Below, in pieces: positions 21,768 to 42,728 of a stretch of 64,000 nucleotides of DNA. The stretch comes from Clostridia bacterium. GTDB lineage: Bacteria; Bacillota; Clostridia; UMGS1883. Both the position numbers and the translations under genes were made by a program. Every line of letters starts with the position of its first letter. Within the stretch, counting starts at the first letter, position 1. The notes beneath the pieces were generated by a model. It saw nothing but the letters and a program-made list of their open reading frames with translations, was not told the DNA's origin and made no database searches. Location: the NCBI GenBank assembly GCA_045651805.1, contig JAZRTB010000032.1, positions 14,178 through 78,177 of the forward strand, in the 5' to 3' direction.

Positions 21768-21781
21768 AAGGAGTGAAAAAT

Positions 21782-23626: not shown

Positions 23627-23642
23627 AAACGAGTAAGTTAAA

Positions 23643-26767: not shown

Positions 26768-26796
26768 CTTCAGCAACAAGCTTTTCGAAGCTTTTG

Positions 26797-26898
26797 CACA
26801 ACAACTCCGGTTTTCCTCTACATAATCAAACTTGCCATGAGTTTTTCATAAAGCCGGAGTTGTTGTTATATATAAGGTATAAACTTTGCCATGAGTTT
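26797..26898. promoter_or_regulatory. Repeat-rich leader at left island junction: 14-bp inverted repeat (CACAACAACTCCGG / CCGGAGTTGTTGTT) interleaved with two direct repeats AAACTT(T)GCCATGAGTTT
   Basis: Read directly: IR arms at 26797..26810 and 26854..26867; DR copies at 26828..26844 and 26881..26898. Lies in the 416-bp intergenic region downstream of rhaA. Confidence 0.3.
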
Positions 26899-27183
26899 AT
26901 ATACATAGTGTTGGGCGTTGCGGAGATTTTCCGGGCGCCCTTCCTCGTAATACAGAAATATAAATACTTCGCTTGGGGAATGAAAACAAATTTGACATCT
27001 TTTTTGACATCTACTATATTAAAAAAGCGTAATTATATATAAAAGCAGGTAACAAAGAAAACTCTATTATATTGGGGATTGTACAGAATTTGGAACTTAA
27101 TGAACTTCACGTTTTTACAGCTTTTAATCAAGTTGTCAACGAAGTCTTTTCGGAATTAATATATTAATCAGGGTGGTTAGAGT

Positions 27184-28131
27184 ATGAGTAAAGGATACGA
27201 AAAAGCAAAAAATATATATCAATCTGCTTCAGAAGAAAGCAGAAGTGAAAATAAAGATTGGGATTCATACTTTGACGAACTAGAAGATAGTGACTTCAAG
27301 CAATTTTACATAAACAATTCTAAGGAAAAAAGTTATCTTCGAAAAAAAGTTGATGGTAAAGATTTAAAAAGTTTTGCATCAAGAAAATTTTTATTAGTAG
27401 ATATTTGGAAATGTTTATATATAGAAGCATATTTGAAAAATTTTGGCGTAAAAAGAGAAGTTTTCGAGAGTGAAGTGCTGAAATATGGAAACAAAAAAAG
27501 TTCTAAAAGAATTTCTGAAAAAAGTGATGAATACAAATTAAACAAGTATGCATTAAAATATATCAAGGACTCCATTGATTCTATTACTGACGAAGGTGAA
27601 AAAATTTTCCCTGAATTTGAAAGTTTTAAAAGAGTAAAACTAAAAGATCTGACTGCCATTTTCGAATACGCCTTCGACGATCCTGATATAATGGAAAAAT
27701 TAAAGAAGGGCAGACATTGTAATTTTGATCCGGTTGAAGCGATGCTTATATTTTTTATTTTGGATGATAAATACAAGAAAGAAATTAAGCATATACGATA
27801 TAATGAGGGTCATCTGGTAAAACGAAGATATATGAACGGTCTTAAAAGATATGCAACTGCAATTGATAATAAGAGAAATTTATCACATGGGAGTATTGAA
27901 AACAACATAACTGACATTTATGAAAAAAGGGTAGAAGTATTGGAATCTGATTTACCTACAATTCATAATCTGATTGAGGATGCCATAGCCGAGTATAAAA
28001 AAGGTGATATTGAAAAAGTTATAGAAATATCAAAAAAATGCATAAAGAAATTAAAGAAATTTATTAAAAGAAATGAAAAATCAACACAAAGCACTATCCA
28101 AAACGTTGATCAAACAAAACTAAACAATTAA
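27184..28131 (+). CDS. Hypothetical Lys-rich protein (315 aa), island-encoded
   Basis: RBS GGGTGG upstream. AT-rich codon usage typical of the island. No recognised domain. Followed by its own terminator. Confidence 0.55.
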   Translation: MSKGYEKAKNIYQSASEESRSENKDWDSYFDELEDSDFKQFYINNSKEKSYLRKKVDGKDLKSFASRKFLLVDIWKCLYIEAYLKNFGVKREVFESEVLKYGNKKSSKRISEKSDEYKLNKYALKYIKDSIDSITDEGEKIFPEFESFKRVKLKDLTAIFEYAFDDPDIMEKLKKGRHCNFDPVEAMLIFFILDDKYKKEIKHIRYNEGHLVKRRYMNGLKRYATAIDNKRNLSHGSIENNITDIYEKRVEVLESDLPTIHNLIEDAIAEYKKGDIEKVIEISKKCIKKLKKFIKRNEKSTQSTIQNVDQTKLNN

Positions 28132-28149
28132 AAGAAAACTTTCTCATGG

Positions 28150-28190
28150 AACAGCTACAAACTGCGGTTTGTAGCTGTTTATTCGTTTTG
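28150..28190 (+). terminator. Rho-independent terminator (AACAGCTACAAA-CTGCGG-TTTGTAGCTGTT + T-rich tail)
   Basis: 12-bp stem followed by TATTCGTTTT, immediately after the stop of 27184..28131. Confidence 0.6.
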
Positions 28191-28373
28191 GACGAAAATA
28201 TGTCGTCTGCCGTATTTGTATACTTTAAAGTTTGTGTTTGTTGTTAGATAATAACATTTCTTGGTGAATAAAAAATTTTGAATCTTCACTAGTTTTAAAA
28301 AAATATGATTGGTATAATCAGAGATGTCCTGGCCGGGAAAAGTATTTATTAAATGAAAGGAGATTGTAAAGAT

Positions 28374-28895
28374 ATGATTCTTACTGAAAATACTATTAAA
28401 GAGGAACATATCTCTTGCAACGATGAGAACTTATCATTGCAAGAAAGGGAATTCTATAATATGGAATTCACCGAAGAAATCTACAATGCTGCATTAGAAC
28501 ACATGGATACAGCACTCAGATATTTGCGTTCTGCAGAAATGTACTTAATGGAAGATGATAATCTTGCGGCATTAGGGTATTTGAAATATGGTATGATACA
28601 TACCGCAAGAGCCTTGCTGAAGCTATATGACCCGGAAGACAAGAGTATTGATGTTATGAACCGTTTTGACAGAACATATGTAAAAACAGGTATTGTCTAT
28701 TCCGATAATTTCTTTTATTGGTATGACCTGGGTTTTTTATTAAAAGTTTTAGCATTTGATGCATGCTTTGAAGTTTCCGAGGATCAGGTTATCGAAGCTT
28801 TGGAATATGCGGATGCATTTTTCGAAGATGTAGACTATATCTTGTCGGAGTGCGCAGTGTGTGTAGAAGATGAACAGGAGGAATATGTATTATGA
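28374..28895 (+). CDS. HEPN-like helical domain protein (copy 1; lacks the conserved His found in copy 2)
   Basis: Segment AALEHMDTALRYLRSAEMYL...AALGYLKYGMIHTARALLKLYDPEDKSIDVMNRFDRTYVKTG follows the Pfam HEPN (PF05168-type) pattern A..YYAMFHAARALL...K.H.G.I..F. ATG at 28374 chosen after AAAGGAG; the ORF-track start is 28353. Confidence 0.55.
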   Translation: MILTENTIKEEHISCNDENLSLQEREFYNMEFTEEIYNAALEHMDTALRYLRSAEMYLMEDDNLAALGYLKYGMIHTARALLKLYDPEDKSIDVMNRFDRTYVKTGIVYSDNFFYWYDLGFLLKVLAFDACFEVSEDQVIEALEYADAFFEDVDYILSECAVCVEDEQEEYVL

Positions 28896-29524
28896 GTAAT
28901 GTGCATTATAATGCGAATGGGTCTGACTATATGTCAGACCCAAGAAATCAAAATGTAGTCGGCAAGAGTATTTGTGCCGAAGGAAGAGAGTCAGTTGCAA
29001 AGGCAACCGCGGGAGAAAGTACATTTTATAATGAAACTTTACCTCTGGATATTGTCAATCAATTTTGTGGGGTGAAGTTTTCCGAACAACAATATGCTTC
29101 TGCAAAATGCAGAATAGATATCGCAAAATCACATTTATATTCTGCAAAGAAGCACTTTAAAAAAAGAGACTATATCGCTATGCAGAGTTATATGCATTGC
29201 TCAATGAATCATGCATTAAGAGCGTTGCTGGAACTCAAGGAAGAATGTGATGAAAAACACATTGATATTATGTCGACCTTTGAAAGAAAGTATATCCATA
29301 CTAAACTTTTTAGTGAAAACAACTTCCTTTTTTGGCAAAAGATATCTTATGTGTTTGAAAAAATAGTTCGTGGGGATTTTTTCAGTTGGCCAAGAGAGCG
29401 TTTTAATGAGGCATTGACTAGAGTATCCATATTTTTAGAAGATGCTGAAGAAGTCTTATCATATTACTATATGTGTACTGATAAGGAAACTGAAAAATCA
29501 ACAGGGGGAAATGATTATGAGTAA
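28892..29524 (+). CDS. HEPN-like helical domain protein (copy 2; retains the conserved His, ...MNHALRALLELKEECDEKHIDIMSTFERKY...)
   Basis: Paralogous to 28374..28895 over the HEPN-like core. Start overlaps the upstream stop (ATGA), indicating translational coupling. Confidence 0.55.
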   Translation: MSNVHYNANGSDYMSDPRNQNVVGKSICAEGRESVAKATAGESTFYNETLPLDIVNQFCGVKFSEQQYASAKCRIDIAKSHLYSAKKHFKKRDYIAMQSYMHCSMNHALRALLELKEECDEKHIDIMSTFERKYIHTKLFSENNFLFWQKISYVFEKIVRGDFFSWPRERFNEALTRVSIFLEDAEEVLSYYYMCTDKETEKSTGGNDYE

Positions 29525-29903
29525 ATTTGAATTTATGAATTATACTGAACAGTCTTCGGTGGAAAACGCCGATGAAAAGGAACTACAGGGTGGTTCTCCA
29601 AACTTTATGGAAGATGTGTTTTGTCAAAGCAAAAAGGTCAAAAAGCTCTTTAAAAAGGACAAAAAGACTAAAAAAGCTCTTTCTAAACAAGGCAAGCAAA
29701 TAAAGAAAGTAGCTTCTTTTGGCAAAGAGATTGGCAAAAAAGTAGAAGTTATCAGTGAAGAGGTAAAAGACGTTAAGCGAGATGTCGCTAAATTCAAAAA
29801 GACAACGCGTGACAGTCTTTTTAAAGAACTCGTTTACTGCGAGGATGCCTCTGAAAGAAAACGTCTAATCGCGGAAATTCAGAGCACAGAGGTGACTATA
29901 TGA
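29517..29903 (+). CDS. Small Lys-rich protein (129 aa) with N-terminal double-glycine-leader-like segment (MSKFEFMNYTEQSSVENADEKELQGG)
   Basis: ATG at 29517 is preceded by AGGGGG at ~8 nt. It overlaps the upstream gene by 8 nt and the downstream gene by 4 nt. The core is extremely Lys-rich (KKVKKLFKKDKKTKKALSKQGKQIKK). Confidence 0.5.
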   Translation: MSKFEFMNYTEQSSVENADEKELQGGSPNFMEDVFCQSKKVKKLFKKDKKTKKALSKQGKQIKKVASFGKEIGKKVEVISEEVKDVKRDVAKFKKTTRDSLFKELVYCEDASERKRLIAEIQSTEVTI

Positions 29904-31576
29904 GTACTGAACTACTATATCGTTCGGACACCACGGGGGGGACAACCCTCCGTGGTGAAAGTGAGACAACTATAGCTAATTTTTATCCTGTGGTGAAAAA
30001 AGTGGCTAAGTATAAGTGCGGAGATAAAGTGCAAAAGAAATATGTAGTGGAGTTCTATGACCCATACTATATAGGAAAAGTTGAAATTGATTCAAAAAGC
30101 TTGGAAAAATTTGATTACTCCAGTGTGGATGATGCTTTGCAATTAAACCCTACTATATCTACTGCCGGAAAAGAAATGGCATATTATATAAGAGACCAGG
30201 CCAAAAGCGTAGAGGTAGAGGAAAAACTCCTGTTAGACACTCTAGGGTGGCATAATTGTAGTGATAATCATGTCTATTGCGCAGGTAACATGGTAATAGG
30301 AGAAATTTCTCAGAAAGACTATGTTATATCAGATTGTTTATCCAAATATCGTCTTGATATTGATGTAACTCTCAGCGAAAAAGACGCTGCAGTTCATACG
30401 ATGAAACTGATGGATATAGCTCCCGGTAGCAGTTGTTTGGTTTTTGCTTCAGGTCTGCTGGGGCCATTACGACAAATTATCCTTGATGCCGGTTTACGAC
30501 CGCCATGTATTCCTTATGTAGAAGGAGAATCTCAATGTAAAAAGACAACGCTTGTTAAACTATGTACGATTATGTACAATAGAAGTGAACTGCAGAACGA
30601 CAGCGATATAGCCTGCAAGAGAGTAAGTAGTTCAGAGTTCAAACTTGAAGAAATTATATCAGAGCTTAAAGATACCACTTTTTTGCTTGATGATCTTTTC
30701 AAGGCAGACAACAAGATGAAGAAAATTTATGAAGGTCGTATCGAAAATGCAATCAGGAATTTTGCTGATAACTCTACAAGATCAACCGCCAGAAGTGCAT
30801 TTAAGAACAATTCAAATATTATCATTACAGCAGAATATCTGATAGAAAGTAAAACTGATGTTGGGAGGCTTTTCTTGATATGTATCGGACAAGATGATGT
30901 AGATGTTGATAAACTCTCTGAATGTCAGAAAAATCCACTCGCACTTTCTACTTTTTATTGTTATTTCATAAGGCATTTATCACTGCATTATGATGCAATT
31001 GTAGAGCGACTTAAAAAGGAATATTCTGCTTTCAGGTGCTCAGCATATGACCATGAAAGTAAATTCGGGAGATTATATGAACAGTTCTTTCTTATTGATT
31101 TTGCGTTTTCGTTATATCTGGAGTATGCAGTAAGTGTTGGACTAAATATAAATAAGGAGCTTGTTAAAAATAATTTCCAAAACTATGTACGGCAAGCCTT
31201 GAAGAAGCAGAATGGAATACTCATTTCTCTCGATAGGAAAGAAGTGAAATCTGTAAATTTCTCGAAAGAACTTGTTACTATGATTAGTGATGGTTCTGTA
31301 ACCTTGTTAAAAAAAGGTTCAGAATGTTTTGAGAAGGGTGGATTTATCTATATAACCACCAGGTACTTTAATTCAAAGCTACGAGAAAAATACGAAAGAG
31401 ATTTTTCCGCGAGAAGCATTACTTCGTATTTCAGAGACCGGTACATATCAGAGGTAGACGCAGATAACCGTCAAAAGAAATATAAAGGGAGACGCTACCT
31501 TAAATTAAATAAAAAAGAATTAATGAAAGACGCCTATGATACCGGTTATGAAATCAATAATCTGTTTTATAACTAA
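29900..31576 (+). CDS. Hypothetical protein (558 aa), last gene of the tandem HEPN operon
   Basis: Long ORF with island-type composition. ATGA overlap with the upstream gene. No Walker A or other recognised motif seen. Confidence 0.6.
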   Translation: MSTELLYRSDTTGGTTLRGESETTIANFYPVVKKVAKYKCGDKVQKKYVVEFYDPYYIGKVEIDSKSLEKFDYSSVDDALQLNPTISTAGKEMAYYIRDQAKSVEVEEKLLLDTLGWHNCSDNHVYCAGNMVIGEISQKDYVISDCLSKYRLDIDVTLSEKDAAVHTMKLMDIAPGSSCLVFASGLLGPLRQIILDAGLRPPCIPYVEGESQCKKTTLVKLCTIMYNRSELQNDSDIACKRVSSSEFKLEEIISELKDTTFLLDDLFKADNKMKKIYEGRIENAIRNFADNSTRSTARSAFKNNSNIIITAEYLIESKTDVGRLFLICIGQDDVDVDKLSECQKNPLALSTFYCYFIRHLSLHYDAIVERLKKEYSAFRCSAYDHESKFGRLYEQFFLIDFAFSLYLEYAVSVGLNINKELVKNNFQNYVRQALKKQNGILISLDRKEVKSVNFSKELVTMISDGSVTLLKKGSECFEKGGFIYITTRYFNSKLREKYERDFSARSITSYFRDRYISEVDADNRQKKYKGRRYLKLNKKELMKDAYDTGYEINNLFYN

Positions 31577-31589
31577 AACGGATTATCTC

Positions 31590-31660
31590 CCTCTATAATT
31601 TTACCGTAGGGGGAATGTATCCCCCTATGGTAAAATTATAGAGGGATAATAAGACAACAA
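31590..31660. terminator. Very long near-perfect hairpin (~30-bp stem: TTATCTCCCTCTATAATTTTACCGTAGGGGG / CCCCCTATGGTAAAATTATAGAGGGATAA) after the 558-aa gene; probable terminator/insulator or recombination site
   Basis: Inverted repeat read directly from the sequence. Arms are separated by ~8 nt (AATGTATC). No strong U-tract. Confidence 0.4.
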
Positions 31661-31751
31661 GCTCTATTGGGCAAGAAGAATATTACCTATCCTTCACGGG
31701 AAATATTCAGAATAAGTGAAGATATAATATCGAAGGAGGGATTGATGCTGG

Positions 31752-31940
31752 ATGAATAAACAGCAAATGAAATTGACTAAATTCTGTGAAGAATTCGATG
31801 TCCCGCGTAGTACAGCACTCAAATGGGTGCACTCTCAGGGATTCCCGGCATATAACCTTTGTGGACACTGGTACATCGATTTGCCGGAATATTATAGGTG
31901 GAGAGAGAATCAACACCATATATCGTATAAATATGCTTAA
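31752..31940 (+). CDS. xis: Excisionase/AlpA-like helix-turn-helix DNA-binding protein (Xis)
   Basis: 62 aa. LTKFCEEFDVPRSTALKWVHSQGFPAYNLCGHWYIDLPEYYRW matches MerR-like/excisionase HTH proteins (..SRSTIYRWV..G.FPA.K.GG.WR...E...W). Sits immediately upstream of the integrase. Confidence 0.6.
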   Translation: MNKQQMKLTKFCEEFDVPRSTALKWVHSQGFPAYNLCGHWYIDLPEYYRWRENQHHISYKYA

Positions 31941-31958
31941 TATATTATAAACAACAAA

Positions 31959-31995
31959 TCCGGAACAGTATGGAGAGGACACTTACTGTTCCGGA
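31959..31995. promoter_or_regulatory. 12-bp perfect inverted repeat TCCGGAACAGTA...TACTGTTCCGGA between xis and int, overlapping the int RBS region
   Basis: Read directly from the sequence; 13-nt spacer. Confidence 0.3.
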
Positions 31996-32012
31996 AGAAA
32001 GGAGAATGTTTA

Positions 32013-33128
32013 TTGAAAAAAAGAGCAGACGGAAGATATTGTAAGCAGATATTTATTGGCTATAAGCCTGATGGTACAAGAAGAATGAAGACCATTTACG
32101 GAAAAACTATCAGAGAAGTAGAGAAGAAAGAATCCGAAATCAAGGGGCAGATGGAGCAGGGAATAAATGTGTCTGAAAACCTGACAGTGGCAGAGTGGGC
32201 AGACATCTGGCTTAAAACATTTAAGACGGATATCGCCAACAACACCTATGTGAGATATGCAGGCATAGTCAGGAATCAGATTATTCCGCTGCTTGGCAAT
32301 GTCTTGATTCCGAATATAAGACTTAATATGTTGCAAAAACTGATAAATGATATGGCGGAGAAATATGCTCCGGCAACAGTTAAGAAAACAAAGGATGTTC
32401 TGCATCAAATGTTTCAGCAAGCGGTAAGGTCACAATATATCGCCGTAAATCCTGCTGAAAGCATAGTGACACCTAAATTTCATCAGAATGACAGAGAGCC
32501 ACTTTCAACAGAGCATGTAAGAAATATAGAAGAGTTCTGTAGGAACTATAAACACGGAGCGTTTGTAATGGCATTACTATATACCGGAGTCAGAAGGGGA
32601 GAACTACTTGCATTGCAGGTTAAGGATGTGGACTTTGAGAACGGTTATATAACCATTAATAAGTCGGTTGAGTTTTTATGTAACTCTCCCAACCTGAAAA
32701 CTCCGAAAACTCCGAAAAGCAACCGCTTGATACCGATACTCAAACCATTGATTCCATATCTGCAAAGGGCTGTTGACGGCAAAGAAAGCACAGACTTTAT
32801 ATTTACCGGGTACGACGGAAATCTACACACAAAGTCAGCGGTTCAAAGGTTGTTTAAAGCTTTTAACAGAGATTATAACCGCTACATAAACAGATTCAGA
32901 ACAGAGGATGAGTACGAAAGCGTTCATTTTACGATGCATCAGTTCAGACACACCTTTTGTACGATGATGTATGATGCAGGAGTTGATGTGAAAACGGCGC
33001 AGGAAATATTAGGACATAGTAGTATTAATGTAACTCTTGATATATATACGCATCTCAGTCAATACAAAAAGAAAATCAATATTGATAAGATGAACGCATA
33101 TATTGAAAGCCAATTCAAACCAGAATAA
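32013..33128 (+). CDS. int: Site-specific tyrosine recombinase (phage integrase family)
   Basis: TTG start 7 nt after AAAGGAGA. The C-terminal catalytic region HQFRHTFCTMMYDAGVDVKTAQEILGHSSINVTLDIYTHL carries the R..H..R..Y signature of tyrosine integrases. An N-terminal SAM-like/core-binding region is present. Confidence 0.85.
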   Translation: MKKRADGRYCKQIFIGYKPDGTRRMKTIYGKTIREVEKKESEIKGQMEQGINVSENLTVAEWADIWLKTFKTDIANNTYVRYAGIVRNQIIPLLGNVLIPNIRLNMLQKLINDMAEKYAPATVKKTKDVLHQMFQQAVRSQYIAVNPAESIVTPKFHQNDREPLSTEHVRNIEEFCRNYKHGAFVMALLYTGVRRGELLALQVKDVDFENGYITINKSVEFLCNSPNLKTPKTPKSNRLIPILKPLIPYLQRAVDGKESTDFIFTGYDGNLHTKSAVQRLFKAFNRDYNRYINRFRTEDEYESVHFTMHQFRHTFCTMMYDAGVDVKTAQEILGHSSINVTLDIYTHLSQYKKKINIDKMNAYIESQFKPE

Positions 33129-33130
33129 AG

Positions 33131-33170
33131 CACAGTGAATTTCTTTATGATTCACTGTGCTTTATTTTTC
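33131..33170 (+). terminator. Rho-independent terminator after int (AAGCACAGTGAAT-TTCTTTATG-ATTCACTGTGCTT + TATTTTT)
   Basis: 13-bp stem plus U-tract. Its 3' half is the left copy of the 29-nt direct repeat. Confidence 0.7.
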
Positions 33171-33190
33171 CGCCAAAAAACTTGTATATA

Positions 33191-33219
33191 TTGACAAAGA
33201 ACATATCATAGTATATAAT
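33191..33219 (+). promoter_or_regulatory. Consensus sigma-A-type promoter TTGACA-17 nt-TATAAT upstream of the XRE/DUF3990-like gene
   Basis: TTGACA at 33191..33196, a 17-nt spacer, TATAAT at 33214..33219, then RBS AGGTGG and ATG at 33252. Confidence 0.55.
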
Positions 33220-33251
33220 ATAGATGTTATCAAATGATAGGTGGCGGTAAA

Positions 33252-34097
33252 ATGAAAAGCTTAATTAAAAATATACGAATCTCTGCTAATATGAGTCAGG
33301 AGCAATTTGCTGATTGTATCGGAACTACCGTGCTTTCTGTTAACAGATGGGAAAACGGTAAAACTGAACCTAATAAAATGGCTCAAAAGCAACTATACCA
33401 ATTTTGTAAGGATAATAATATTGATTTAGCAAAAATTATTGTAGAATCAAAAGAATATGAAAATATTGAGAATAAGCTGGTTTTATATCATGGCTCTAAA
33501 AAAGGTATAAATGGGGATATTGCACCCATTAGTCGTGGAGAGTGCGATTTTGGTAAGGGGTTCTATATGGGAACAAGTACTTTGCAACCCCTTACTTTGG
33601 TGTGTGCAGAAGAAAAACCTAAATTTTATACTGTTGAACTGGATTTGACGGGTCTTAAAGTTCTCAATGTTGAAATCGGTCTTGAATGGGCACTCTTGAT
33701 AGCATATTACCGCAAGGAAATGGAGTCTGCCATAGGTACGGAAATCTATGAAAAGTATGCTAATTTTGCAAGTGGTTATGATGTTATAGTAGGTTATATT
33801 GCAAATGATCGTATGTATACTGAATTATCTCGTTTCTTCAATAAAACTTTAACTGACACGGCATTAATACATTGCTTATCTGCACTTGATCTTGGCAAGC
33901 AGTATGTTGCAATTACAGAAAAAGCGTGTAGGCAAATCAAAGTCCTGAAAGAAGAAAGTTTATCTCAGCTTGAACTTGCAATTCTTCGTGATATGAGTGT
34001 AGAACGCAGAAAAGAAGGAATAGCTCTTGCTGATGAAATTGAAGTGAAATATCGCCGTGAAGGAAAGTTTTTTGATGAGATTCTGGGAGGAAAATGA
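33252..34097 (+). CDS. XRE-family HTH fused to a DUF3990-like domain
   Basis: The N-terminus (IRISANMSQEQFADCIGTTVLSVNRWENGKTEPN) is a Cro/C1-type HTH. The C-terminal part has the LYHGS...DFGKGFY motif that I recall as characteristic of DUF3990. ATG at 33252; the ORF-track start is 33234. Confidence 0.55.
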   Translation: MKSLIKNIRISANMSQEQFADCIGTTVLSVNRWENGKTEPNKMAQKQLYQFCKDNNIDLAKIIVESKEYENIENKLVLYHGSKKGINGDIAPISRGECDFGKGFYMGTSTLQPLTLVCAEEKPKFYTVELDLTGLKVLNVEIGLEWALLIAYYRKEMESAIGTEIYEKYANFASGYDVIVGYIANDRMYTELSRFFNKTLTDTALIHCLSALDLGKQYVAITEKACRQIKVLKEESLSQLELAILRDMSVERRKEGIALADEIEVKYRREGKFFDEILGGK

Positions 34098-34519
34098 TTA
34101 TGAATAAATCCTTACTATTAACTCTTTGTGATACTCAAGGTAAATTATTTGAGTTGTCAGGAAAGCGTGGCTATGACAGCGAAGCCTTTATTAAGACGTT
34201 TATGACTACTGATATTTCAAAGGATATGGACAAGGAGTTTCACCATGTCCAGTGGGCAGGGAAGGAATATATTATGTCTCGTATGGAAGATGAGAATTCT
34301 GATGCTATAATCGGTAACGGAATTGTTTACGATAACGAAACATTGTACTGGATAGGTTATATCTATAGATACTGGAATATATACACGGGAGAATCAAGCA
34401 AAGACATTTACAAGCAAGCACCGGTAAAGACTATGCAAACTGTTTATTTAATGTATCATACCATGAGCCCTGAACTTGCAATAGACAGACTAAAAGAGTC
34501 TTACAAAGATAGCAAGTGA
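34094..34519 (+). CDS. Small hypothetical protein (141 aa), translationally coupled partner of the XRE/DUF3990-like gene (possibly DUF3791-like)
   Basis: ATGA overlap with the upstream stop. No recognised motif. A partner role is inferred only from the common DUF3990/DUF3791 gene-pair arrangement. Confidence 0.45.
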   Translation: MIMNKSLLLTLCDTQGKLFELSGKRGYDSEAFIKTFMTTDISKDMDKEFHHVQWAGKEYIMSRMEDENSDAIIGNGIVYDNETLYWIGYIYRYWNIYTGESSKDIYKQAPVKTMQTVYLMYHTMSPELAIDRLKESYKDSK

Positions 34520-34591
34520 TTTGGATTTCATTTGTTCGGCGCATATCAAATTTTGATAATAATGTATTTTATAACAAAAGGTGACAATATA

Positions 34592-35824
34592 ATGAGAACT
34601 ACGAATTTAAAAATGCCAGAGGGATATATATCGATGCTTTCAAATTTAGCCGCTATAACTTCCCAACACGGAGAACTTGTTAAATTTAATGATGAAAGTT
34701 ATCGTAGATTGGTAGACAATCTTTCGAGCAAATTAATAAAGAATAGCGTAATAAATGATATTGTACAAAAACAATCAAGGATGTTACAGTCGTTTAATTA
34801 CTCGCTATATTCCGGTAATATTGGCATTCAAGCATTAACATCGCAATGGAATACTATGGCTCGAATAGCAGAATCGTTCCAAACGCCTGAAATCAAGATG
34901 TTGAAGGATTCTTTAATACGAAATGAAATTTCAGCAGTTAGCACGTTTGTTGACTCTATAAAAGGCATGCGTATAGAAGCGGCCAATATTGCATTTTTGA
35001 AAATGGCACCAATTTTTGAGAGTGTATCACTCCCTAAAGGAATGAAAAGTGTCATTAAAGATATTCATGTAGATACTGCAAGACGATTATCTACAGCTAA
35101 AAACATTAGTTTTGATAGTGATAAAAAATTATTCTACGTCGAATATCAACCGAAAGACACAGCAACAGTTTCTGAAACAAATATTCTTTGTTCGTCATTG
35201 CATCTTCTGTCAGATATAGATGAAGCAGATTTAATTTCGTTTATGAATTACTTGGGAAATCACCTTCCCTTTGCTAGCACTCATCGTACCGGAAAAAGAA
35301 TAAATGAAATAATATCAAAGTGGAATGAATTTTCTGATTTTGATTGTGATTATTACTACCATGCTCGGGCTCTTCCAGAGGGCAAGGAACCTTATACAGA
35401 GCAAGAACTTCGTCAAGCTCCATATGGGTTAACCTGGCAAGGACGCTATAATTACACGGGTGAAAGTCACTATTACTTTTCAAATGTGCCCAAAGGTGCT
35501 CTTATGGAGGTCGCAAAACACACAAAGGAAAAAAGAGTCCAAATTGCGAAATTAAGACCGACAAGAAGCATACGTATGATAGATTTGTCACAAGAAATTA
35601 CAACACAGAATAAATTCTTAGAATACTGTAGATTGAAACCTCAACCAGGAGATTATCCAAATATTAAAAGAGAGTATTTGCTACCCTGTTATGTTGCCAA
35701 TTGTTGTGAACTAAATGGCATAGAAGGAATAAAGTATCATGGTAGCAAAGAATATAAGAATTATGTTTCTTGGGAAGATACATATTTTGATTTTGTGGAT
35801 TCGGAAATACAAAATAACATATAA
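34592..35824 (+). CDS. RES-domain protein (NAD+-targeting toxin-like) with ~290-aa N-terminal extension
   Basis: The C-terminal ~140 aa match the RES-domain signature: WQGRYNYTGESHYYFSNVPKGALMEVAKH (cf. GGRWN..G.PvlYlS.sp.tAllEvl.H), then MIDLSQE, then CCELNGIEGIKYHGSKEYKNYVSW (cf. G.DGi.yPS....N.vlf). ATG at 34592 after AAAGGTGA; the ORF-track start is 34532. Confidence 0.6.
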   Translation: MRTTNLKMPEGYISMLSNLAAITSQHGELVKFNDESYRRLVDNLSSKLIKNSVINDIVQKQSRMLQSFNYSLYSGNIGIQALTSQWNTMARIAESFQTPEIKMLKDSLIRNEISAVSTFVDSIKGMRIEAANIAFLKMAPIFESVSLPKGMKSVIKDIHVDTARRLSTAKNISFDSDKKLFYVEYQPKDTATVSETNILCSSLHLLSDIDEADLISFMNYLGNHLPFASTHRTGKRINEIISKWNEFSDFDCDYYYHARALPEGKEPYTEQELRQAPYGLTWQGRYNYTGESHYYFSNVPKGALMEVAKHTKEKRVQIAKLRPTRSIRMIDLSQEITTQNKFLEYCRLKPQPGDYPNIKREYLLPCYVANCCELNGIEGIKYHGSKEYKNYVSWEDTYFDFVDSEIQNNI

Positions 35825-35857
35825 CAAAATAGAGCTTCTTTGGATTGGAGAGATATT

Positions 35858-37537
35858 GTGAAATTTGAGAGGATTACAATAAAGAATTTTAGAAACTTTG
35901 AAGATATTACACTTGATTTATCAAATAAAAATATTTTCTTTGGATTAAATGATGTGGGAAAAACTAATTTCTTATATGCAATGAGGTATTTGTTCGATAA
36001 GGATGTTCGAAAACACAATCTTATTGATTCAGATTTTCATAATAAACAATTAGATCTGCCAATCGAAATAGTCGTGACATTAGATATTAGTGACACAGAC
36101 AATGTTGATTGTAAAAAGTTGCGTGCAAGATTAAAAGGAGCACTGCGTAGCGAACATACAAAAGTATATATTAAGTTATTAGCTCAATATAATAAAGGCG
36201 AATTGATTGCTATGCCAATTTTGTTTTGGGGTGGCGATATGGGACATCTTCAAGAAATGAAACAAAGAGGATATTTATACGAAATTGATTATGTGTTTAA
36301 TGTGATTTATATTGACTCGTATGTCGATTTGCATTTGTTGTTTAAAAAGAATGTTGGACAGCTTGTGAAGAATGAAAAAGAAGAAGATAAAGAAGTGCTG
36401 AACAATATTCAGTTAAATGTAAATGAATTGAATAAAAACATTTCTTCATTATCAGGAATTAAAGAGTTTGAAGAAAAGATTACCCCTGAGTATAAAAAGT
36501 TTAGGAATGAAGGGATTTCTGTAACTGTAAAGTCTGAAATAGCGGTAAAAGGACTATATTCTAATATCGTACCATATATAAAACAAGATAATGATGATAA
36601 CTTATATCCAACTGCCGGAGAAGGAAGAAAGAAATTACTAGCATATTCCATTTTTGATATTCTTTCAGATGAGTCAACTGAAAAGAAAATCAATTTATTT
36701 CTTATAGAAGAACCTGAAAATCATTTACATAAATCTATGCAAATAGCGTTATCTCAAATTCTTTTTTCTAACGATAAATACTCATATCTTTTTGTTACAA
36801 CTCATTCTCCGTTTGTTCTTTATGAAATGGACAATGTTAATTTGGTGCGTATTTATAGTGAACGACATATTGATAGCAAGAGTGTGTTTTACACTGTTCC
36901 TTCTGAGTTTGAGAAAAACAAAAAGATGTTAAACCAACAATTATCAGAAGCAATATTTGCTGACAGAGTTTTACTGGTAGAAGGTCCATCCGAAAAAATG
37001 TTATTTTGTAAAGTTTTATATGTTATCAATCCATTTTATGAAGTTGAAGGCGTATATGTTCTGCCAGTAGATGGTATAGGCTTTAGAAAATATATTGACA
37101 TATTAGATGATTTGAACATTCACAATATAATTAAAACCGATAATGATTTGCGTGCGGTTAAAAAAGGTGGACCATATAGTACATTAGGTTTTTCACGATG
37201 CAATAACTATATTGGTGAAGATATCCTACCAACAGATCAAATAGCTGAAAAAACAATAAAATCAAAAAGAGATTTATATGAAGCTAATAAGGAAACTCTC
37301 AATTCTATTCGCAAGGAGTATTCGATATATTTATCAAAAGTGGATTTAGAAAACGACTTAGATGAATGTATGCATGAAAGATTGGTGTCTTTGTTAGGTG
37401 TTGATGATCCGGTAGACCATTTGCAAGATTCAAAACATTACAATATGGTTGAATTAATAGGAAAGTTAAGCGATGAAGATTGTAGAAACATTTACAATCA
37501 TTACAATTTTGCATGTTTGAAGGAGGTTGTTGAATGA
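35858..37537 (+). CDS. gajA: Gabija GajA: OLD-family ATP-dependent endonuclease (ABC-type ATPase + Toprim)
   Basis: N-terminus ERITIKNFRNFEDITLDL...FFGLNDVGKTNFLYAMRYLFDK has a Walker A motif. The C-terminal Toprim-like region has LLVEGPSEKMLF...IIKTDNDL...SKVDLENDL...NMVELIGKLSDEDCRNIYNHYNFACLKE, close to my recollection of Bacillus GajA. GTG 35858 chosen after GGAG; the ORF-track TTG is at 35840. Confidence 0.8.
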   Translation: MKFERITIKNFRNFEDITLDLSNKNIFFGLNDVGKTNFLYAMRYLFDKDVRKHNLIDSDFHNKQLDLPIEIVVTLDISDTDNVDCKKLRARLKGALRSEHTKVYIKLLAQYNKGELIAMPILFWGGDMGHLQEMKQRGYLYEIDYVFNVIYIDSYVDLHLLFKKNVGQLVKNEKEEDKEVLNNIQLNVNELNKNISSLSGIKEFEEKITPEYKKFRNEGISVTVKSEIAVKGLYSNIVPYIKQDNDDNLYPTAGEGRKKLLAYSIFDILSDESTEKKINLFLIEEPENHLHKSMQIALSQILFSNDKYSYLFVTTHSPFVLYEMDNVNLVRIYSERHIDSKSVFYTVPSEFEKNKKMLNQQLSEAIFADRVLLVEGPSEKMLFCKVLYVINPFYEVEGVYVLPVDGIGFRKYIDILDDLNIHNIIKTDNDLRAVKKGGPYSTLGFSRCNNYIGEDILPTDQIAEKTIKSKRDLYEANKETLNSIRKEYSIYLSKVDLENDLDECMHERLVSLLGVDDPVDHLQDSKHYNMVELIGKLSDEDCRNIYNHYNFACLKEVVE

Positions 37538-39036
37538 ATCTATCTCCAGTTCAAGAGAAAATAGTTAGTACGCAAGGTAATTTAATTGTAAGAGCAAGCG
37601 CAGGTACCGGTAAGACACACACAATGGTTAATAAGATTGCTAAAGAAACTACCGACAATCGCTCACACAAGGTTGTTGCAGCCATTACTTTTACAATAAA
37701 AGCAGCTCAAGAAATTAAAGAACGTTTGGTTATTGATACTAATCAGCATTTTATCGGAACTAATAATAGCTTTGCAATAGAAGAAATTATAAAACCATTC
37801 ATGAAGGACGTATATGGCGAAGAATATAATATTGATATGGGTACAGATTATGCATTAAAAGTAAATACATATCAAGAAGGATTAGATAAGATAAAAAATG
37901 AACATACTCTTTGCTCATATCAAAACACTAAAGAGAATTTTATATTTGAATTAGCTTACAATATAGTATTAAAATCCAGAGCTTGTCAATTGTATCTTAA
38001 GGCAAAGTATTTCAAAATATATATAGATGAATATCAGGATTGCGACAGAACTATGCATGATTTTTTCATGTATCTATGTGATGAACTAAAAATAGACACT
38101 TTTGTTGTTGGTGATGAAAAGCAATCCATTTATATTTGGAGAGGAGCTTATCCAGAAGCATTCAAAAGTATTTGGGAAAAAGAAAATTTTGAGAAAATAT
38201 TTATGGGAGATAACTTTCGCTCTTCGCAACAAATTCAAAATTATTCTAATCTTTTATGCGAAGAAACAAGGGAACTATATAAAGCAACAGAAACCGCAGA
38301 TAATATAATATGGATATCTCCTGATAGAGTGAATTATGCAAATGAAATATTGTCATACATTGATCCTAATAAAAGTTCAGCATTGTTAAGGTTTTCAAAT
38401 GATAATGCAAAAAAATGTGCCGAAGCATTAACATCTGCTGGTTTAGAATATATTTATATACCTCAAACACCTATTGCCGATATTTCAACTGAAACAGCGT
38501 GGTTATATACATCAATAGCAAAATATATAATCTTAACAAAATATTCGGTTTACGACTTGATTTCGGAAATACCTGTTGAAGGCGATGAGAGTATTAAAGC
38601 AGTATCAAAAATAGATGGACTGCTCATTAAGTGCAATGAAAATTCGAAGAATGAAATGCTTTTTAAGGATAGTGTAAATAAATTGGCGAAGCATCTTGGA
38701 TACGAAACAAGAGACGAAGATCTGAAAAAATTATATCAGACTATTTCGGATGAGAAATACTATCCCGCTTATGATACGGAAAGCTATAAACATATATCAA
38801 TTACTTTTCATTCTTCAAAAGGGCTAGAATTTGAACAGATCATTGTTTTTGCGGAAGATTATCGGTTATCAGATATGCCAAGTATATATAACCACTATGT
38901 TGCAGTAACTAGAGCAAAAAGCAAACTAATAATAGTAAAATCAACTGATTACAATGCAAATTGTTTTCAAGTCAACCTGCAAAAAATATTTAAACAAAGT
39001 TCTGTTGAATTGATCGATATTATCACATTTAGATGA
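37534..39036 (+). CDS. gajB: Gabija GajB: UvrD/PcrA-like superfamily-1 helicase
   Basis: 500 aa. Walker A VRASAGTGKTHTMVNKIA. Has a DExQD-like motif (IYIDEYQDCD) and later UvrD-type motifs (VVGDEKQSIY, TFHSSKGLEFEQIIV, AVTRAKSKL). 4-nt overlap with gajA. Confidence 0.8.
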   Translation: MNLSPVQEKIVSTQGNLIVRASAGTGKTHTMVNKIAKETTDNRSHKVVAAITFTIKAAQEIKERLVIDTNQHFIGTNNSFAIEEIIKPFMKDVYGEEYNIDMGTDYALKVNTYQEGLDKIKNEHTLCSYQNTKENFIFELAYNIVLKSRACQLYLKAKYFKIYIDEYQDCDRTMHDFFMYLCDELKIDTFVVGDEKQSIYIWRGAYPEAFKSIWEKENFEKIFMGDNFRSSQQIQNYSNLLCEETRELYKATETADNIIWISPDRVNYANEILSYIDPNKSSALLRFSNDNAKKCAEALTSAGLEYIYIPQTPIADISTETAWLYTSIAKYIILTKYSVYDLISEIPVEGDESIKAVSKIDGLLIKCNENSKNEMLFKDSVNKLAKHLGYETRDEDLKKLYQTISDEKYYPAYDTESYKHISITFHSSKGLEFEQIIVFAEDYRLSDMPSIYNHYVAVTRAKSKLIIVKSTDYNANCFQVNLQKIFKQSSVELIDIITFR

Positions 39037-39037
39037 C

Positions 39038-39071
39038 AAAAAAGAAGCTTTTCTTGTAAAGCTTCTTTTTT
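39038..39071 (+). terminator. Rho-independent terminator after gajB (AAAAGAAGCTTT-TCTTGT-AAAGCTTCTTTTTT)
   Basis: 12-bp stem plus U-tract directly after the stop at 39034..39036. Confidence 0.7.
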
Positions 39072-39216
39072 GAAATTCTTTATAATTCATTGTGCTTTAT
39101 TTTTTGTCATAGGAGAAAGGATGCACCTATTTATGTCTGTAATGTATAGTAACAGTCAGACAAATGTTAGTCAAATGTTAGTCAAAATGGTTAAAATCAC
39201 TATATGGAAGAAAATG

Positions 39217-39254
39217 TAAAAACGGCTCAACCCTATTGGTTAAGCCGTTTTCTG
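39217..39254 (-). terminator. Rho-independent terminator of tRNA-Glu (minus strand): GAAAACGGCTTAACC-AATAGG-GTTGAGCCGTTTTT
   Basis: Inverted repeat AAAACGGCTCAACC/GGTTAAGCCGTTTT on the plus strand. On the minus strand it lies just 3' of the tRNA and ends in a U-run. Confidence 0.55.
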
Positions 39255-39255
39255 A

Positions 39256-39331
39256 TGGTGACCCCACGGGGAATCGAACCCCGGTCTTCGCCGTGAGAGG
39301 GCGACGTCCTAGGCCGCTAGACTATGGGGCC
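39256..39331 (-). tRNA. tRNA-Glu (anticodon CUC)
   Basis: The reverse complement reads GGCCCCATAGTCTAGCGGCCTAGGACGTCGCCCTCTCACGGCGAAGACCGGGGTTCGATTCCCCGTGGGGTCACCA. It has a 7-bp acceptor stem, a GGGG-TTCGATT-CCCC T-arm, an anticodon loop CTCTCAC and an encoded CCA. Collinear with Bacillus tRNA-Glu. Confidence 0.85.
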
Positions 39332-39546
39332 ATTTCGATCACTTGCTTATTATAATACGAAAAGCATAAGTTGTCAATAATTTTTTTCGTAAAATGAAAA
39401 AAATCTGCCACTTTCCTTGACTAAATGCGGATTTTGGTGTAAATTATATATTGGTATGTTGTGAAAATTCCGACGAGTCGGAATTGAAGTTTAAAAAGCT
39501 GTTTTATAACGAAAAAATGATATACATACAGAAAGGATGATACGAA

Positions 39547-41254: not shown

Positions 41255-41267
41255 GGAGGAGATTACA

Positions 41268-42704: not shown

Positions 42705-42728
42705 ACTGATTAAAGGAATTGATACATC

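What the first reader, a model, noticed from the sequence alone, without database searches (positions are those of the whole stretch)
26768..39331. AT-rich genomic island at tRNA-Glu with an internally located Xis/Int pair
Composition, codon usage and gene content change abruptly after rhaA and revert after the tRNA. The tyrosine integrase (32013..33128) and excisionase (31752..31940) lie in the middle rather than at an edge. This splits the island into a left module (Lys-rich protein plus the HEPN operon, ending in a 30-bp-stem hairpin at 31590..31660) and a right module (RES cassette plus Gabija). I could not find a duplicated tRNA 3' end at the left boundary. The island is therefore probably composite or decayed, with two independently acquired modules sharing one recombinase.
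Basis: partly seen in the sequence, partly recalled or inferred. Interest (0 to 1): 0.55.

Follow-up and report, generated by a model that had tools for sequence, protein, structure and literature searches.

The report
Replicating tRNA-Glu island with defence-gene slot
This is one modular mobile island inserted next to a tRNA-Glu gene in an uncultured gut Clostridia bacterium; it carries its own replication helicase, and its integrase looks "internal" only because relatives swap anti-phage genes in a slot between the integrase and the tRNA.

Summary
The island is real. GC is 0.335 inside against 0.398 outside (p=6e-6). It lies between rhaA and tRNA-Glu(CTC) and contains an intact tyrosine integrase, an excisionase, Gabija and a 27-bp-arm palindrome.

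The reading "two independent modules sharing one recombinase" is only partly right. Every integrase relative of at least 62% identity that I examined sits convergent with tRNA-Glu(CTC). In the minimal relative, int ends 75 nt from the tRNA and overlaps three tandem TGTTAGTCAAA repeats.

In the window, a 5.9-kb cargo separates int from these repeats: an HTH-DUF3990/PDC-M42-like pair, a RES-like protein and GajA/GajB. The cargo has its own consensus promoter and terminator. It is bracketed by a 34-nt direct repeat derived from the int terminator. Relatives carry other cargo in the same slot (DUF262/NsnA-like, PDC-M13, DUF2442, or nothing).

The "HEPN operon" is the element's replication module. 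The 558-aa protein folds like the SCCmec Cch and SaPI Rep initiator-helicases. The palindrome directly downstream of it is a candidate origin.

I found no attL repeat and no empty site, so current mobility is unproven. The best description is a new variant of the integrative, replicative defence island. Interest is moderate.

The parts
26768..26945 (.). Chromosomal spacer after rhaA. It is not part of the island. The left junction lies at about 26905-26945.
   Evidence: The motif ATAAACTT(T)GCCATGAGTTTATATA also follows rhaA in L134/L135 (RhaA 95% identical), which have a different downstream sequence. L001 positions 1-43 match window 26875-26916 at 98% and then diverge.
26992..28180 (+). Left variable unit: a monocistronic Lys-rich 315-aa gene (27184-28131) with its own promoter (26992-27020) and terminator (28149-28180). 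Function unknown.
   Evidence: No hit in Pfam, PHROGs, NCBIfam or PADLOC. GC is 0.28. L001 has an unrelated 381-aa gene at this position.
28353..28895 (+). 180-aa protein, a paralogue-like relative of the next gene (HEPN-like helical protein).
   Evidence: 28% identical to the 210-aa protein. Only a weak DUF357 hit.
28892..29524 (+). 210-aa HEPN-like protein, the first gene of the conserved three-gene replication operon.
   Evidence: Pfam HEPN 23.1 bits against cut-off 22. It aligns with the MNT-partner HEPN of L002 but has no Rx4-6H motif. It is 66% identical in L136 and 61% in L001.
29517..29903 (+). 128-aa Lys-rich small protein, the second gene of the operon. The longest ORF starts at 29442.
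   Evidence: 76% identical in L136, 41% in L139 and 41% in L001, always directly upstream of the helicase gene.
29900..31576 (+). 558-aa replication initiator-helicase of the Cch/SaPI-Rep (DUF927-like) type.
   Evidence: AF2 pLDDT 86, pTM 0.76. Foldseek against PDB: SCCmec Cch 5dgk E 1.6e-16 (TM 0.53/0.57) and SaPIbov1 Rep 8tch E 5e-13. Foldseek against BFVD: DUF927/primase-helicases. Distant relatives pass the Pfam DUF927 threshold. Walker A GESQCKKT and Walker B LLDD are visible in the sequence.
31588..31646 (.). Palindrome with 27-nt arms made of four TCCCNCT heptamers in alternating orientation around AT-rich stretches. It is a candidate origin of replication (inferred) and possibly also a terminator.
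   Evidence: Inverted repeats lie immediately 3' of the helicase gene in L136, L001 and L139 too. The SaPI ori lies immediately downstream of rep, with opposed iterons around an AT-rich centre (PMC9371898).
31652..31750 (+). Conserved leader upstream of xis, with two mutually exclusive stems or paired palindromic octamers (GAATATTC).
   Evidence: Conserved in L001 and in L136, which has a different int. Both stems are kept through double changes in L136.
31752..31940 (+). Excisionase-like HTH protein (62 aa).
   Evidence: HTH_17 E 1.4e-4. It lies directly upstream of int in all relatives at 65-92% identity.
32013..33128 (+). Tyrosine integrase of a family specific for tRNA 3' ends.
   Evidence: Relatives of 62% identity or more sit next to tRNA-Glu(CTC). 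The 49% relative sits next to tRNA-Arg(CCG) and the 38% relative next to tRNA-Lys.
33124..33169 (+). int terminator hairpin (perfect 17-nt arms at 33124-33140 and 33150-33166, plus a T tract). Positions 33136-33169 are copy 1 of the 34-nt direct repeat.
   Evidence: The hairpin is kept in L001 and L092, and in L002 with compensatory changes.
33191..33219 (+). Promoter of the cargo block (TTGACA-17-TATAAT, 12/12).
   Evidence: It is one of only two perfect matches in 12.9 kb.
33234..34519 (+). HTH-DUF3990 protein (33234-34097) plus a 141-aa partner (34094-34519). Together they form a PDC-M42-like candidate defence pair.
   Evidence: DUF3990 E 1.3e-27 and HTH_3 E 1.8e-8. PDC-M42A E 1.4e-11, PDC-M13B E 5.9e-18 and PDC-M42B E 2.7e-11.
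34532..35824 (+). 430-aa protein with a sub-threshold C-terminal RES (ART-fold) domain.
   Evidence: RES E 2.9e-4, 21.3 bits against cut-off 23.2. No PADLOC hit.
35840..39036 (+). Gabija system: GajA (35840-37537) and GajB (37534-39036).
   Evidence: PADLOC GajA E 4.7e-239 and GajB E 1.4e-191, both full length.
39037..39104 (+). gajB terminator (39037-39072), then copy 2 of the 34-nt repeat (39071-39104): the loop, 3' arm and T tract of the int terminator.
   Evidence: 44.1 bits against a maximum of 36.2 in 60 shuffles. An equivalent second copy is present in L001.
39105..39255 (.). tRNA-proximal att arm of the element. It holds 11-bp tandem repeats (AGTCAGACAAA, then TGTTAGTCAAA twice) at 39153-39186, which are candidate Int arm-type sites, and the tRNA terminator at 39218-39252.
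   Evidence: 80-89% identical in L001, L002, L087 and L092. In L087 the repeats overlap the int stop codon. Both exact repeats are unique in the window.
39256..39331 (-). tRNA-Glu(CTC), the integration target. Its consensus promoter is at 39349-39377.

Best explanation
Positions ~26.92-39.26 kb are one integrative element of about 12.3 kb. It belongs to a family that targets the 3' side of tRNA-Glu(CTC) in uncultured gut Clostridia.

The conserved core, all on one strand, is:
- a three-gene replication operon (HEPN-like 210 aa, small 128 aa, and a 558-aa Cch/SaPI-Rep-like self-loading initiator-helicase);
- a palindromic candidate origin directly downstream of that operon;
- a regulated leader, then xis, then a tyrosine integrase.

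Beyond int lies the att arm, with 11-bp tandem repeats (candidate Int arm-type sites) and the tRNA terminator.

The core is flanked by two variable regions: a left one (the Lys-rich gene) and a cargo slot between the int terminator and the att arm. In this genome the slot holds a self-contained transcription unit of anti-phage genes (a PDC-M42-like HTH-DUF3990 pair, a RES-like protein and Gabija). That is why int appears to be in the middle.

Cargo is most likely exchanged between related elements by recombination in the conserved flanks: the int 3' end and hairpin on one side, and the duplicated hairpin arm, att arm and tRNA on the other.

Shown: the anatomy, the tRNA association of the integrase family, the variable cargo at a fixed slot, the fold of the helicase, and the modular reassortment.

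Inferred: origin function of the palindrome, Int binding to the 11-bp repeats, excision and replication as a circle, the mode of cargo exchange, and current mobility.
For: 1. Target specificity. In the relatives of 62-91% identity that I examined (L002-6, L087-90, L091, L092), int is convergent with tRNA-Glu(CTC); in L001 (91%) the contig ends 29 nt into the tRNA 3' end, so only that part is seen. A 49% relative lies next to tRNA-Arg(CCG). A 38% relative lies next to tRNA-Lys, the first gene of a five-tRNA operon.

2. Slot. In L087, int ends 75 nt from the tRNA and overlaps three TGTTAGTCAAA repeats. In the window the same repeats (39153-39186) lie 6 kb from int.
- L001 has the same chromosomal left flank, 87% identical xis-int and an 89% identical att arm, but carries a 342-aa gene plus a DUF262/NsnA-like gene in the slot.
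- L092 carries a full PDC-M13 trio.
- L002 carries a DUF2442 gene.

3. The slot is bracketed by a 34-nt repeat, 31/34 identical, scoring 44.1 bits against a maximum of 36.2 in 60 shuffles. The repeat is also seen in L001. The cargo has a 12/12 promoter and its own terminator.

4. Replication module. The structure model (pLDDT 86) best matches SCCmec Cch and SaPIbov1 Rep. Distant family members pass the DUF927 threshold. The operon is 75% nt identical in L136, where it is joined to a 24%-identical integrase. In L139 it is joined to a large serine recombinase. Inverted repeats follow the helicase gene in all four elements, as in SaPI origins (PMC9371898).

5. Foreign composition. No phage structural genes by PHROGs.
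Against: - No direct repeat of 12 nt or more (attL/attR) links the left junction to the tRNA side, in the window or in L002, L087 and L091.
- No empty site was found. The closest rhaA loci are not syntenic. Boundaries and mobility therefore rest on comparison with a single contig (L001).
- The helicase assignment rests on a predicted fold with TM about 0.5 and 12-14% identity. There is no sequence-level PDB hit.
- No primase was identified.
- The palindrome could simply be a terminator.
- Only five or six independent relatives with a readable slot were seen, so 'defence hotspot' rests on a small sample. Part of the cargo annotation elsewhere is weak (SIR2 E about 1e-5) or non-defence (DUF2442).
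Confidence: 0.7

Rival explanations
1. Tandem accretion. Two separate islands integrated one after the other at tRNA-Glu: a Gabija/RES island next to the tRNA, and a rep-xis-int island distal to it. The 34-nt repeats would be the att scars of the proximal island, which has lost or never had its own integrase.
For: A significant 34-nt direct repeat brackets exactly the right module. The two halves differ in GC (0.32 against 0.36-0.38). The right module is transcriptionally autonomous.
Against: - The repeat is not tRNA-derived. It is the loop and 3' arm of the int terminator.
- There is no third copy at the left end of the distal 'island'.
- The conserved att arm with the 11-bp repeats, which directly abuts int in L087, lies on the tRNA side of the cargo.
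- Three other elements carry unrelated cargo at the same position between the same conserved flanks.
- The extent of the duplication differs between elements (34 nt, about 40 nt, about 8 nt), unlike a fixed att core.
Confidence: 0.12
2. Immobilised remnant. The element is a fixed, domesticated defence island that can no longer excise, because attL has been lost by decay.
For: No attL repeat was found at the left junction in any of four elements. No empty site was found. L087 looks like a stripped remnant with only HTH_11, xis and int.
Against: - int has all catalytic residues, and xis is intact and conserved.
- A clearly different variant occupies the same chromosomal junctions in L001: helicase 48% identical, different left gene, different cargo. 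This implies independent integration or recent exchange.
- Tyrosine recombinases need only a 6-8 bp overlap, which my searches (12 nt or more) would miss. This last point is established knowledge, not tested here.
Confidence: 0.3
3. Phage satellite (PICI/SaPI-like). The island is induced by a helper phage, replicates from its own rep-ori and is packaged in helper capsids. The defence cargo protects the host and the satellite.
For: Size is 12.3 kb, with int, xis and a SaPI-Rep/Cch-like initiator followed by a palindromic candidate ori. There is a specific att site, and PHROGs finds no structural or lysis genes. These match the screening criteria listed in PMC6092414.
Against: - No terS, capsid-redirection or interference genes and no Stl-like master repressor were recognised.
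- Gene order is co-directional (rep, ori, xis, int), not the divergent int-stl/str-xis-pri-rep layout.
- No primase.
- The helicase family is almost absent from IMG/VR (one 26% hit) and from phage and plasmid records.
Confidence: 0.2
4. Integron-like capture. The integrase itself inserts gene cassettes at the hairpin just downstream of its own gene, and the duplicated hairpin arm is the recombination site.
For: The cargo is bounded by copies of a hairpin-forming sequence adjacent to int in the window and in L001. Cargo differs between close relatives.
Against: - The repeat bears no resemblance to the tRNA-side sequence where Int must act.
- The duplication length is variable, and in L092 it is nearly absent.
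- There is a single block per element rather than arrays of cassettes each ending in a site.
- int is co-directional with the cargo rather than divergent.
Confidence: 0.06

Closest known systems
SaPI / PICI phage-inducible chromosomal islands
   Same: An integrative island of about 12-15 kb with a specific att site, int and xis. It has a self-loading Rep initiator-helicase whose fold matches (8tch, E 5e-13), an inverted-repeat, AT-rich candidate ori immediately 3' of rep, no phage structural genes, and accessory or defence genes near an end.
   Different: No primase, terS, capsid-size or interference genes and no Stl-type repressor were recognised. All genes are co-directional, with int last. 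Accessory genes lie between int and the att arm. The host is gut Clostridia. Helper-phage dependence is untested.
SCCmec / SCC elements (Cch helicase operon)
   Same: The best structural match of the 558-aa protein is Cch (5dgk, E 1.6e-16, near full length). The helicase is preceded by small conserved ORFs in one operon. In the relative L139, the helicase is linked to a large serine recombinase, as in SCC.
   Different: The window's element uses a tyrosine integrase plus Xis and targets tRNA-Glu rather than rlmH/orfX. There are no ccr genes. The cargo is anti-phage rather than antibiotic resistance.
Defence hotspots of P4-like satellites, P2-like prophages and integrase-associated defence islands (Rousset et al. 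2022, PMC9122126; Hochhauser et al. 2023, PMC10121019)
   Same: A fixed position inside a mobile element, between conserved flanking sequences, holds different anti-phage systems in different relatives.
   Different: The element family, host phylum and position differ. Here the slot lies between the int terminator and the att arm and is bracketed by a duplicated piece of the int terminator.
Gabija (GajA OLD-family nuclease plus GajB UvrD-like helicase)
   Same: Both genes are present, adjacent, overlapping by 4 nt, and match full length to the PADLOC GajA and GajB models (E 4.7e-239 and 1.4e-191).
   Different: Nothing notable. It is an ordinary Gabija carried as cargo.
Classical tRNA-linked genomic island (int next to the tRNA, flanked by a duplicated tRNA 3' end)
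   Same: A tyrosine integrase family tied to tRNA 3' ends, compositional deviation, and accessory cargo.
   Different: int is 6 kb from the tRNA in this copy. No duplicated tRNA 3' segment is found at the far end.

Membership tests
tRNA-linked integrative genomic island | Lies at the 3' side of a tRNA gene and encodes a tyrosine integrase whose relatives share that target | tested here: met
   tRNA-Glu(CTC) is at 39256-39331. The int relatives of 62-76% identity that I examined are next to the same complete tRNA; in the 91% relative L001 only the 3' 29 nt of the tRNA are on the contig. More distant relatives are next to other tRNAs.
tRNA-linked integrative genomic island | Direct repeats (attL/attR) containing the tRNA 3' segment at both ends | tested here: not met
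   Nothing of 12 nt or more is shared between 39037-39345 and 20000-31800, and the same holds in L002, L087 and L091. A short core of 10 nt or less cannot be excluded.
tRNA-linked integrative genomic island | Deviant base composition relative to the flanks | tested here: met
   GC 0.335 against 0.398, p=5.8e-6.
tRNA-linked integrative genomic island | Variable presence: an empty site in related strains | tested here: inconclusive
   No empty site was recovered. The closest rhaA loci are not syntenic, or their contigs end about 345 nt after rhaA. A different variant occupies the same junctions in L001.
Gabija | Adjacent GajA (ABC ATPase plus TOPRIM/OLD nuclease) and GajB (UvrD-like SF1 helicase) | tested here: met
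   PADLOC GajA PDLC00081 E 4.7e-239 (residues 8-565) and GajB PDLC00122 E 1.4e-191 (residues 1-498).
PICI / SaPI | int, xis, replication initiator and adjacent ori; size 12-15 kb; no structural or lytic genes | tested here: met
   using the criteria quoted from PMC6092414. The ori is only a candidate.
PICI / SaPI | Master repressor, primase, packaging or interference genes (terS, cpm/ppi-like) | tested here: not met
   Pfam, PHROGs and NCBIfam give no such hits for any island protein.
PICI / SaPI | Induction by, and packaging in, a helper phage | not testable with these tools
   Needs experiments. The helicase family is nearly absent from IMG/VR.
SCC elements | Cch/Cch2-type (DUF927) helicase | tested here: met
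   Foldseek top hit 5dgk, E 1.6e-16. A distant family member, P0379, scores 28.1 bits on DUF927, above the 22.6 cut-off. The window protein itself has no Pfam hit.
SCC elements | Ccr large serine recombinases and insertion at rlmH (orfX) | tested here: not met
   The window has a tyrosine integrase at a tRNA. Only the relative L139 has a large serine recombinase.
Xre-RES toxin-antitoxin | RES-domain toxin above the family threshold, paired with an Xre/DUF2384 antitoxin | tested here: not met
   RES scores 21.3 bits, below 23.2, and covers only 64 residues. The upstream HTH is fused to DUF3990, and no DUF2384 is found.
HEPN (nuclease) operon | HEPN domain with the Rx4-6H catalytic motif | tested here: not met
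   The Pfam score is marginal (23.1 against 22). The motif position reads EKH in the window and is deleted in L001. The operon partner is a replication helicase.
PDC-M42 (PADLOC candidate defence system) | Adjacent A (DUF3990-type) and B proteins | tested here: met
   PDC-M42A E 1.4e-11 and PDC-M42B E 2.7e-11 over 128 of 138 profile positions. The system itself is only a candidate and has not been tested experimentally, as far as I know.

The most novel reading that the evidence does not exclude
The window may reveal an undescribed family of self-replicating integrative islands of gut Clostridia. The family would be built around a Pfam-less branch of Cch/SaPI-Rep helicases with a cognate palindromic origin, and this replicon would be reassorted among tyrosine and serine recombinases. 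The stretch between the int terminator and the att arm would be a dedicated capture site marked by a duplicated hairpin arm. Defence cassettes would be inserted or swapped there by a specific mechanism rather than by ordinary homologous recombination.
Probability: 0.12. Interest if true: 0.7.

Novelty: new variant of a known kind. Interest (0 to 1): 0.4.

Why it matters
It explains an apparent anomaly, an integrase in the middle of a tRNA island, as a cargo slot inside one element.

It gives a function to a protein family with no annotation. The profile finds about 3,200 clusters at 50% identity, 261 of them at E ≤ 1e-30, and the close members have no Pfam match. The assigned function is a replication initiator-helicase of chromosomal islands in uncultured gut Clostridia.

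If the slot behaves as a defence hotspot across the family, the pair of conserved flanks could serve as an anchor for mining new anti-phage systems in gut Firmicutes. The flanks are the int 3' end with its hairpin, and the TGTTAGTCAAA repeats with tRNA-Glu. P2 and P4 hotspots were used this way in E. coli.

It also extends the SaPI/SCC type of replicon beyond staphylococci.

Tried and rejected
- **Exact-protein look-ups.** RhaA, int, the ABC ATPase and the 100%-identical RhaA cluster P0122 were not on record.
- **Empty site.** The genome-contig scan with RhaA gave 80 loci. The best were 92% and 90% identical, but only rhaA itself matched the window at DNA level, so no synteny and no empty site. 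RhaA homologues at 95% (L134/L135) end about 345 nt after rhaA and have a different upstream context.
- **attL.** blastn-short (word 7) of the tRNA-side 300 nt against the left 600 nt, the mid region and 12 kb to the left, plus the same test in L002, L087, L091 and L098, gave only chance-level matches of 12 nt or less. L098 gave one weak 27-nt AT-rich pair. TGTTAGTCAAA-like arm sites near the left end: none convincing.
- **tRNA carried by the element rather than targeted.** I considered this because 70 nt upstream of the tRNA are conserved in L002. I rejected it because distant int relatives sit next to other tRNAs, including one in a five-tRNA operon.
- **Metagenome scan with an integrase alignment.** It gave mostly distant relatives and few new slots.
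- **Rfam.** Only the tRNA.
- **Phage and plasmid collections.** No DNA or protein match to the island or to the helicase.
- **558-aa protein against the L002 615-aa helicase-like protein.** Unrelated.
- **Sequence-level PDB search for the helicase,** with a single sequence and with a profile: nothing.

Full report
**Observation**

The stretch from the end of rhaA (26767) to tRNA-Glu(CTC) (39256-39331, minus strand, the only tRNA in the window) is AT-rich. Mean GC of 1-kb windows is 0.335 inside and 0.398 outside (Mann-Whitney p=5.8e-6). The drop after rhaA is sharp. The recovery after the tRNA is more gradual.

The island is not uniform in composition:
- Lys-rich gene: 0.28
- Gabija: 0.30
- helicase operon: 0.36
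- xis-int: 0.38-0.39, which is host-like

All annotated parts exist.
- The tyrosine integrase (32013-33128) has a Pfam E of 1e-28 and a complete catalytic set.
- A 62-aa HTH protein lies upstream and accompanies int in every relative.
- A palindrome with 27-nt arms lies at 31588-31646 (z = -9.9).
- GajA and GajB are clear (E 4.7e-239 and 1.4e-191).

'RES' and 'HEPN' are both marginal calls.

**The integrase belongs to the tRNA**

I searched for integrase homologues and fetched the contigs that encode them. In each relative between 62% and 76% identity that I examined, int lies convergent with a complete tRNA-Glu(CTC); in the 91% relative L001 the contig ends 29 nt into the tRNA 3' end. More distant relatives from a metagenome scan lie in the same way next to tRNA-Arg(CCG) (49% identity) and next to tRNA-Lys at the start of a five-tRNA operon (38%). 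So this is a family of integrases specific for tRNA 3' ends, and the tRNA is the target rather than a passenger.

In the minimal relative L087 (fucI | HTH_11 | xis | int | tRNA), int ends 75 nt from the tRNA. Its stop codon overlaps three tandem 11-bp repeats, TGTTAGTCAAA. The same repeats occur in the window only at 39153-39186. They lie inside a 150-nt arm that is 80-89% identical across relatives. Their one-helical-turn spacing, and their position between int and the target, make them candidate Int arm-type sites. That is an inference.

**Why int is 'internal'**

In the window, 5.9 kb separates int from that arm. This block starts with one of only two perfect sigma-70 consensus promoters in the region (33191-33219) and ends with its own terminator (39037-39072).

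The block is bracketed by a 34-nt direct repeat (33136-33169 and 39071-39104, 31/34 identical). The repeat scores 44.1 bits, against a mean of 28.9 and a maximum of 36.2 in 60 dinucleotide shuffles. Copy 1 is the loop, 3' arm and T tract of the int terminator hairpin. Copy 2 is an orphan arm in front of the att arm.

Contig L001 has the same chromosomal left flank (98% over 43 nt), 87% identical xis-int and an 89% identical att arm. It also has the same duplicated arm. Its slot, however, holds a 342-aa gene (weak SIR2-like hits) and a DUF262/NsnA/PD-T4-2-like gene. Other relatives differ again:
- L092 holds a complete PDC-M13 A/B/C trio.
- L002 holds a DUF2442 gene.
- L087 holds nothing.

The right module is therefore exchangeable cargo in a fixed slot of one element. 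It is not a second island.

The length of the duplication differs between elements (34 nt, about 40 nt, about 8 nt). This fits an old duplication followed by cargo swapping through the conserved flanks better than it fits a fixed recombination core. The mechanism is inferred.

**The left module is the replicon**

The 558-aa protein has no Pfam, PHROG, NCBIfam or PADLOC match and only 33 close homologues. An AlphaFold model built on 25 sequences is confident (pLDDT 86, pTM 0.76).

Its best PDB matches, over nearly the full length, are:
- the SCCmec Cch helicase (5dgk, E 1.6e-16, TM 0.53/0.57);
- the SaPIbov1 replication initiator (8tch, E 5e-13);
- then poxvirus D5/E5 and SaPI PriRep1.

Viral matches are DUF927-type primase-helicases. 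A profile search finds about 3,200 cluster representatives. Some of the distant ones reach the Pfam DUF927 threshold, which links the family to Cch at the sequence level.

The operon of 210-aa, 128-aa and 558-aa genes (28876-31602) is 75% identical at DNA level in L136/L137, where it is joined to an integrase only 24% identical to this one. In L139 the 128-aa and 558-aa homologues precede a large serine recombinase. So this is a portable replication module that is reassorted among recombinases.

Inverted repeats lie immediately 3' of the helicase gene in all four elements. In the window they form four TCCCNCT heptamers in alternating orientation around AT-rich stretches. SaPI origins lie immediately downstream of rep and consist of opposed iterons around an AT-rich centre (PMC9371898; PMC6092414). 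The palindrome is therefore a candidate origin. That is inferred, and a plain terminator is not excluded.

The '210-aa HEPN' aligns with a genuine MNT-partner HEPN but lacks the Rx4-6H motif. Its role in the operon is unknown.

**Boundaries**

The motif ATAAACTT(T)GCCATGAGTTTATATA follows rhaA both here and in a 95% RhaA relative with a different downstream sequence. L001 shares window 26875-26916 and then diverges. The left junction is therefore at about 26905-26945. The right end is at, or just inside, the tRNA 3' end.

No attL repeat of 12 nt or more was found in four elements. No empty site could be recovered. Present-day mobility is therefore unproven. In its favour, int and xis are intact, and two clearly different variants occupy the same chromosomal junctions.

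**Comparison with known systems**

The element works like a SaPI/PICI or an SCC element: integrate, excise, replicate from a self-loading helicase, and carry accessory genes. It meets the PICI screening criteria of size, int, xis, rep-ori and lack of structural genes.

It fails, or cannot be tested on, the defining features of those families.
- It has no primase, packaging, interference or repressor genes.
- It has no ccr genes and is not inserted at rlmH.
- Its gene order is co-directional.
- The helicase family is almost absent from IMG/VR, phage and plasmid records.

I therefore file it as a new variant of the integrative, replicative defence-island kind, and as a member of neither PICI nor SCC. 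The Gabija it carries is ordinary.

**Verdict**

Interest is moderate (0.4). The organism is an uncultured Clostridia MAG; the closest RhaA hits are Clostridia and Acutalibacteraceae MAGs.

Noticed in passing
window 31652-31750; L001 4147-4252; L136 11745-11852: The leader upstream of xis is conserved even in L136, which has a different integrase. It offers two mutually exclusive stems: GAATATT(C)...(G)AATATTC and CTTCAC...GTGAAG. Both are kept in L136 through double changes (GGATATCC twice; CTTCGC...GCGAAG). It could be an attenuator-like RNA switch or a pair of palindromic operators. There is no Rfam match.
   Followed up: partly
window 39349-39377 (minus) and 33191-33219 (plus): These are the only two perfect TTGACA-17-TATAAT promoters in 12.9 kb. 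One drives tRNA-Glu and the other drives the defence cargo. The 70 nt upstream of the tRNA, including the promoter spacer, are about 80% conserved in L002, although the neighbouring genes differ.
   Followed up: partly
window 26825-26844 and 26879-26898; L134 about 11244-11272: A near-palindromic motif, AAACTT(T)GCCATGAGTTT, occurs twice, 54 nt apart, after rhaA. It occurs once right after rhaA in a 95% relative. It may be a regulatory or REP-like element of the rhaA 3' flank.
   Followed up: no
L002 2774-4805; L136 3798-5843: Two related elements with different integrases both carry an amidoligase-like gene plus a GATase_6 gene in their left variable arm. L002 has an MNT-HEPN pair next to it, and L136 a HipA/HTH pair. 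The left arm may be a second cargo region.
   Followed up: no
L139 4620-8958: Homologues of the 128-aa protein and the helicase are followed by a DUF6870 gene and a 560-aa large serine recombinase, with a Fic protein and a small resolvase upstream. The layout is SCC-like, in a Clostridia MAG.
   Followed up: no
L098 506-530 and 11133-11159: In the tRNA-Arg(CCG) relative, a 27-nt AT-rich sequence containing the AATCAGTCAAAA arm motif recurs 10.6 kb to the left (89% identical, E 0.11). It is a possible attL/attR pair for that element, but the match is weak.
   Followed up: no
window 29442-29903: The longest ORF for the small Lys-rich protein starts at 29442, inside the preceding gene. Homologues in L136 and L001 support the shorter 128-aa form, which starts at 29517 behind a GGGGGA Shine-Dalgarno-like sequence.
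   Followed up: partly
window 39547-44069: Downstream of the tRNA is an ABC-2 type transporter operon: ATPase, permease, a GldG-like protein and a DUF4340-like protein. Part of it (40.5-42 kb) is as AT-rich (0.34) as the island, so GC alone does not mark the right boundary.
   Followed up: no
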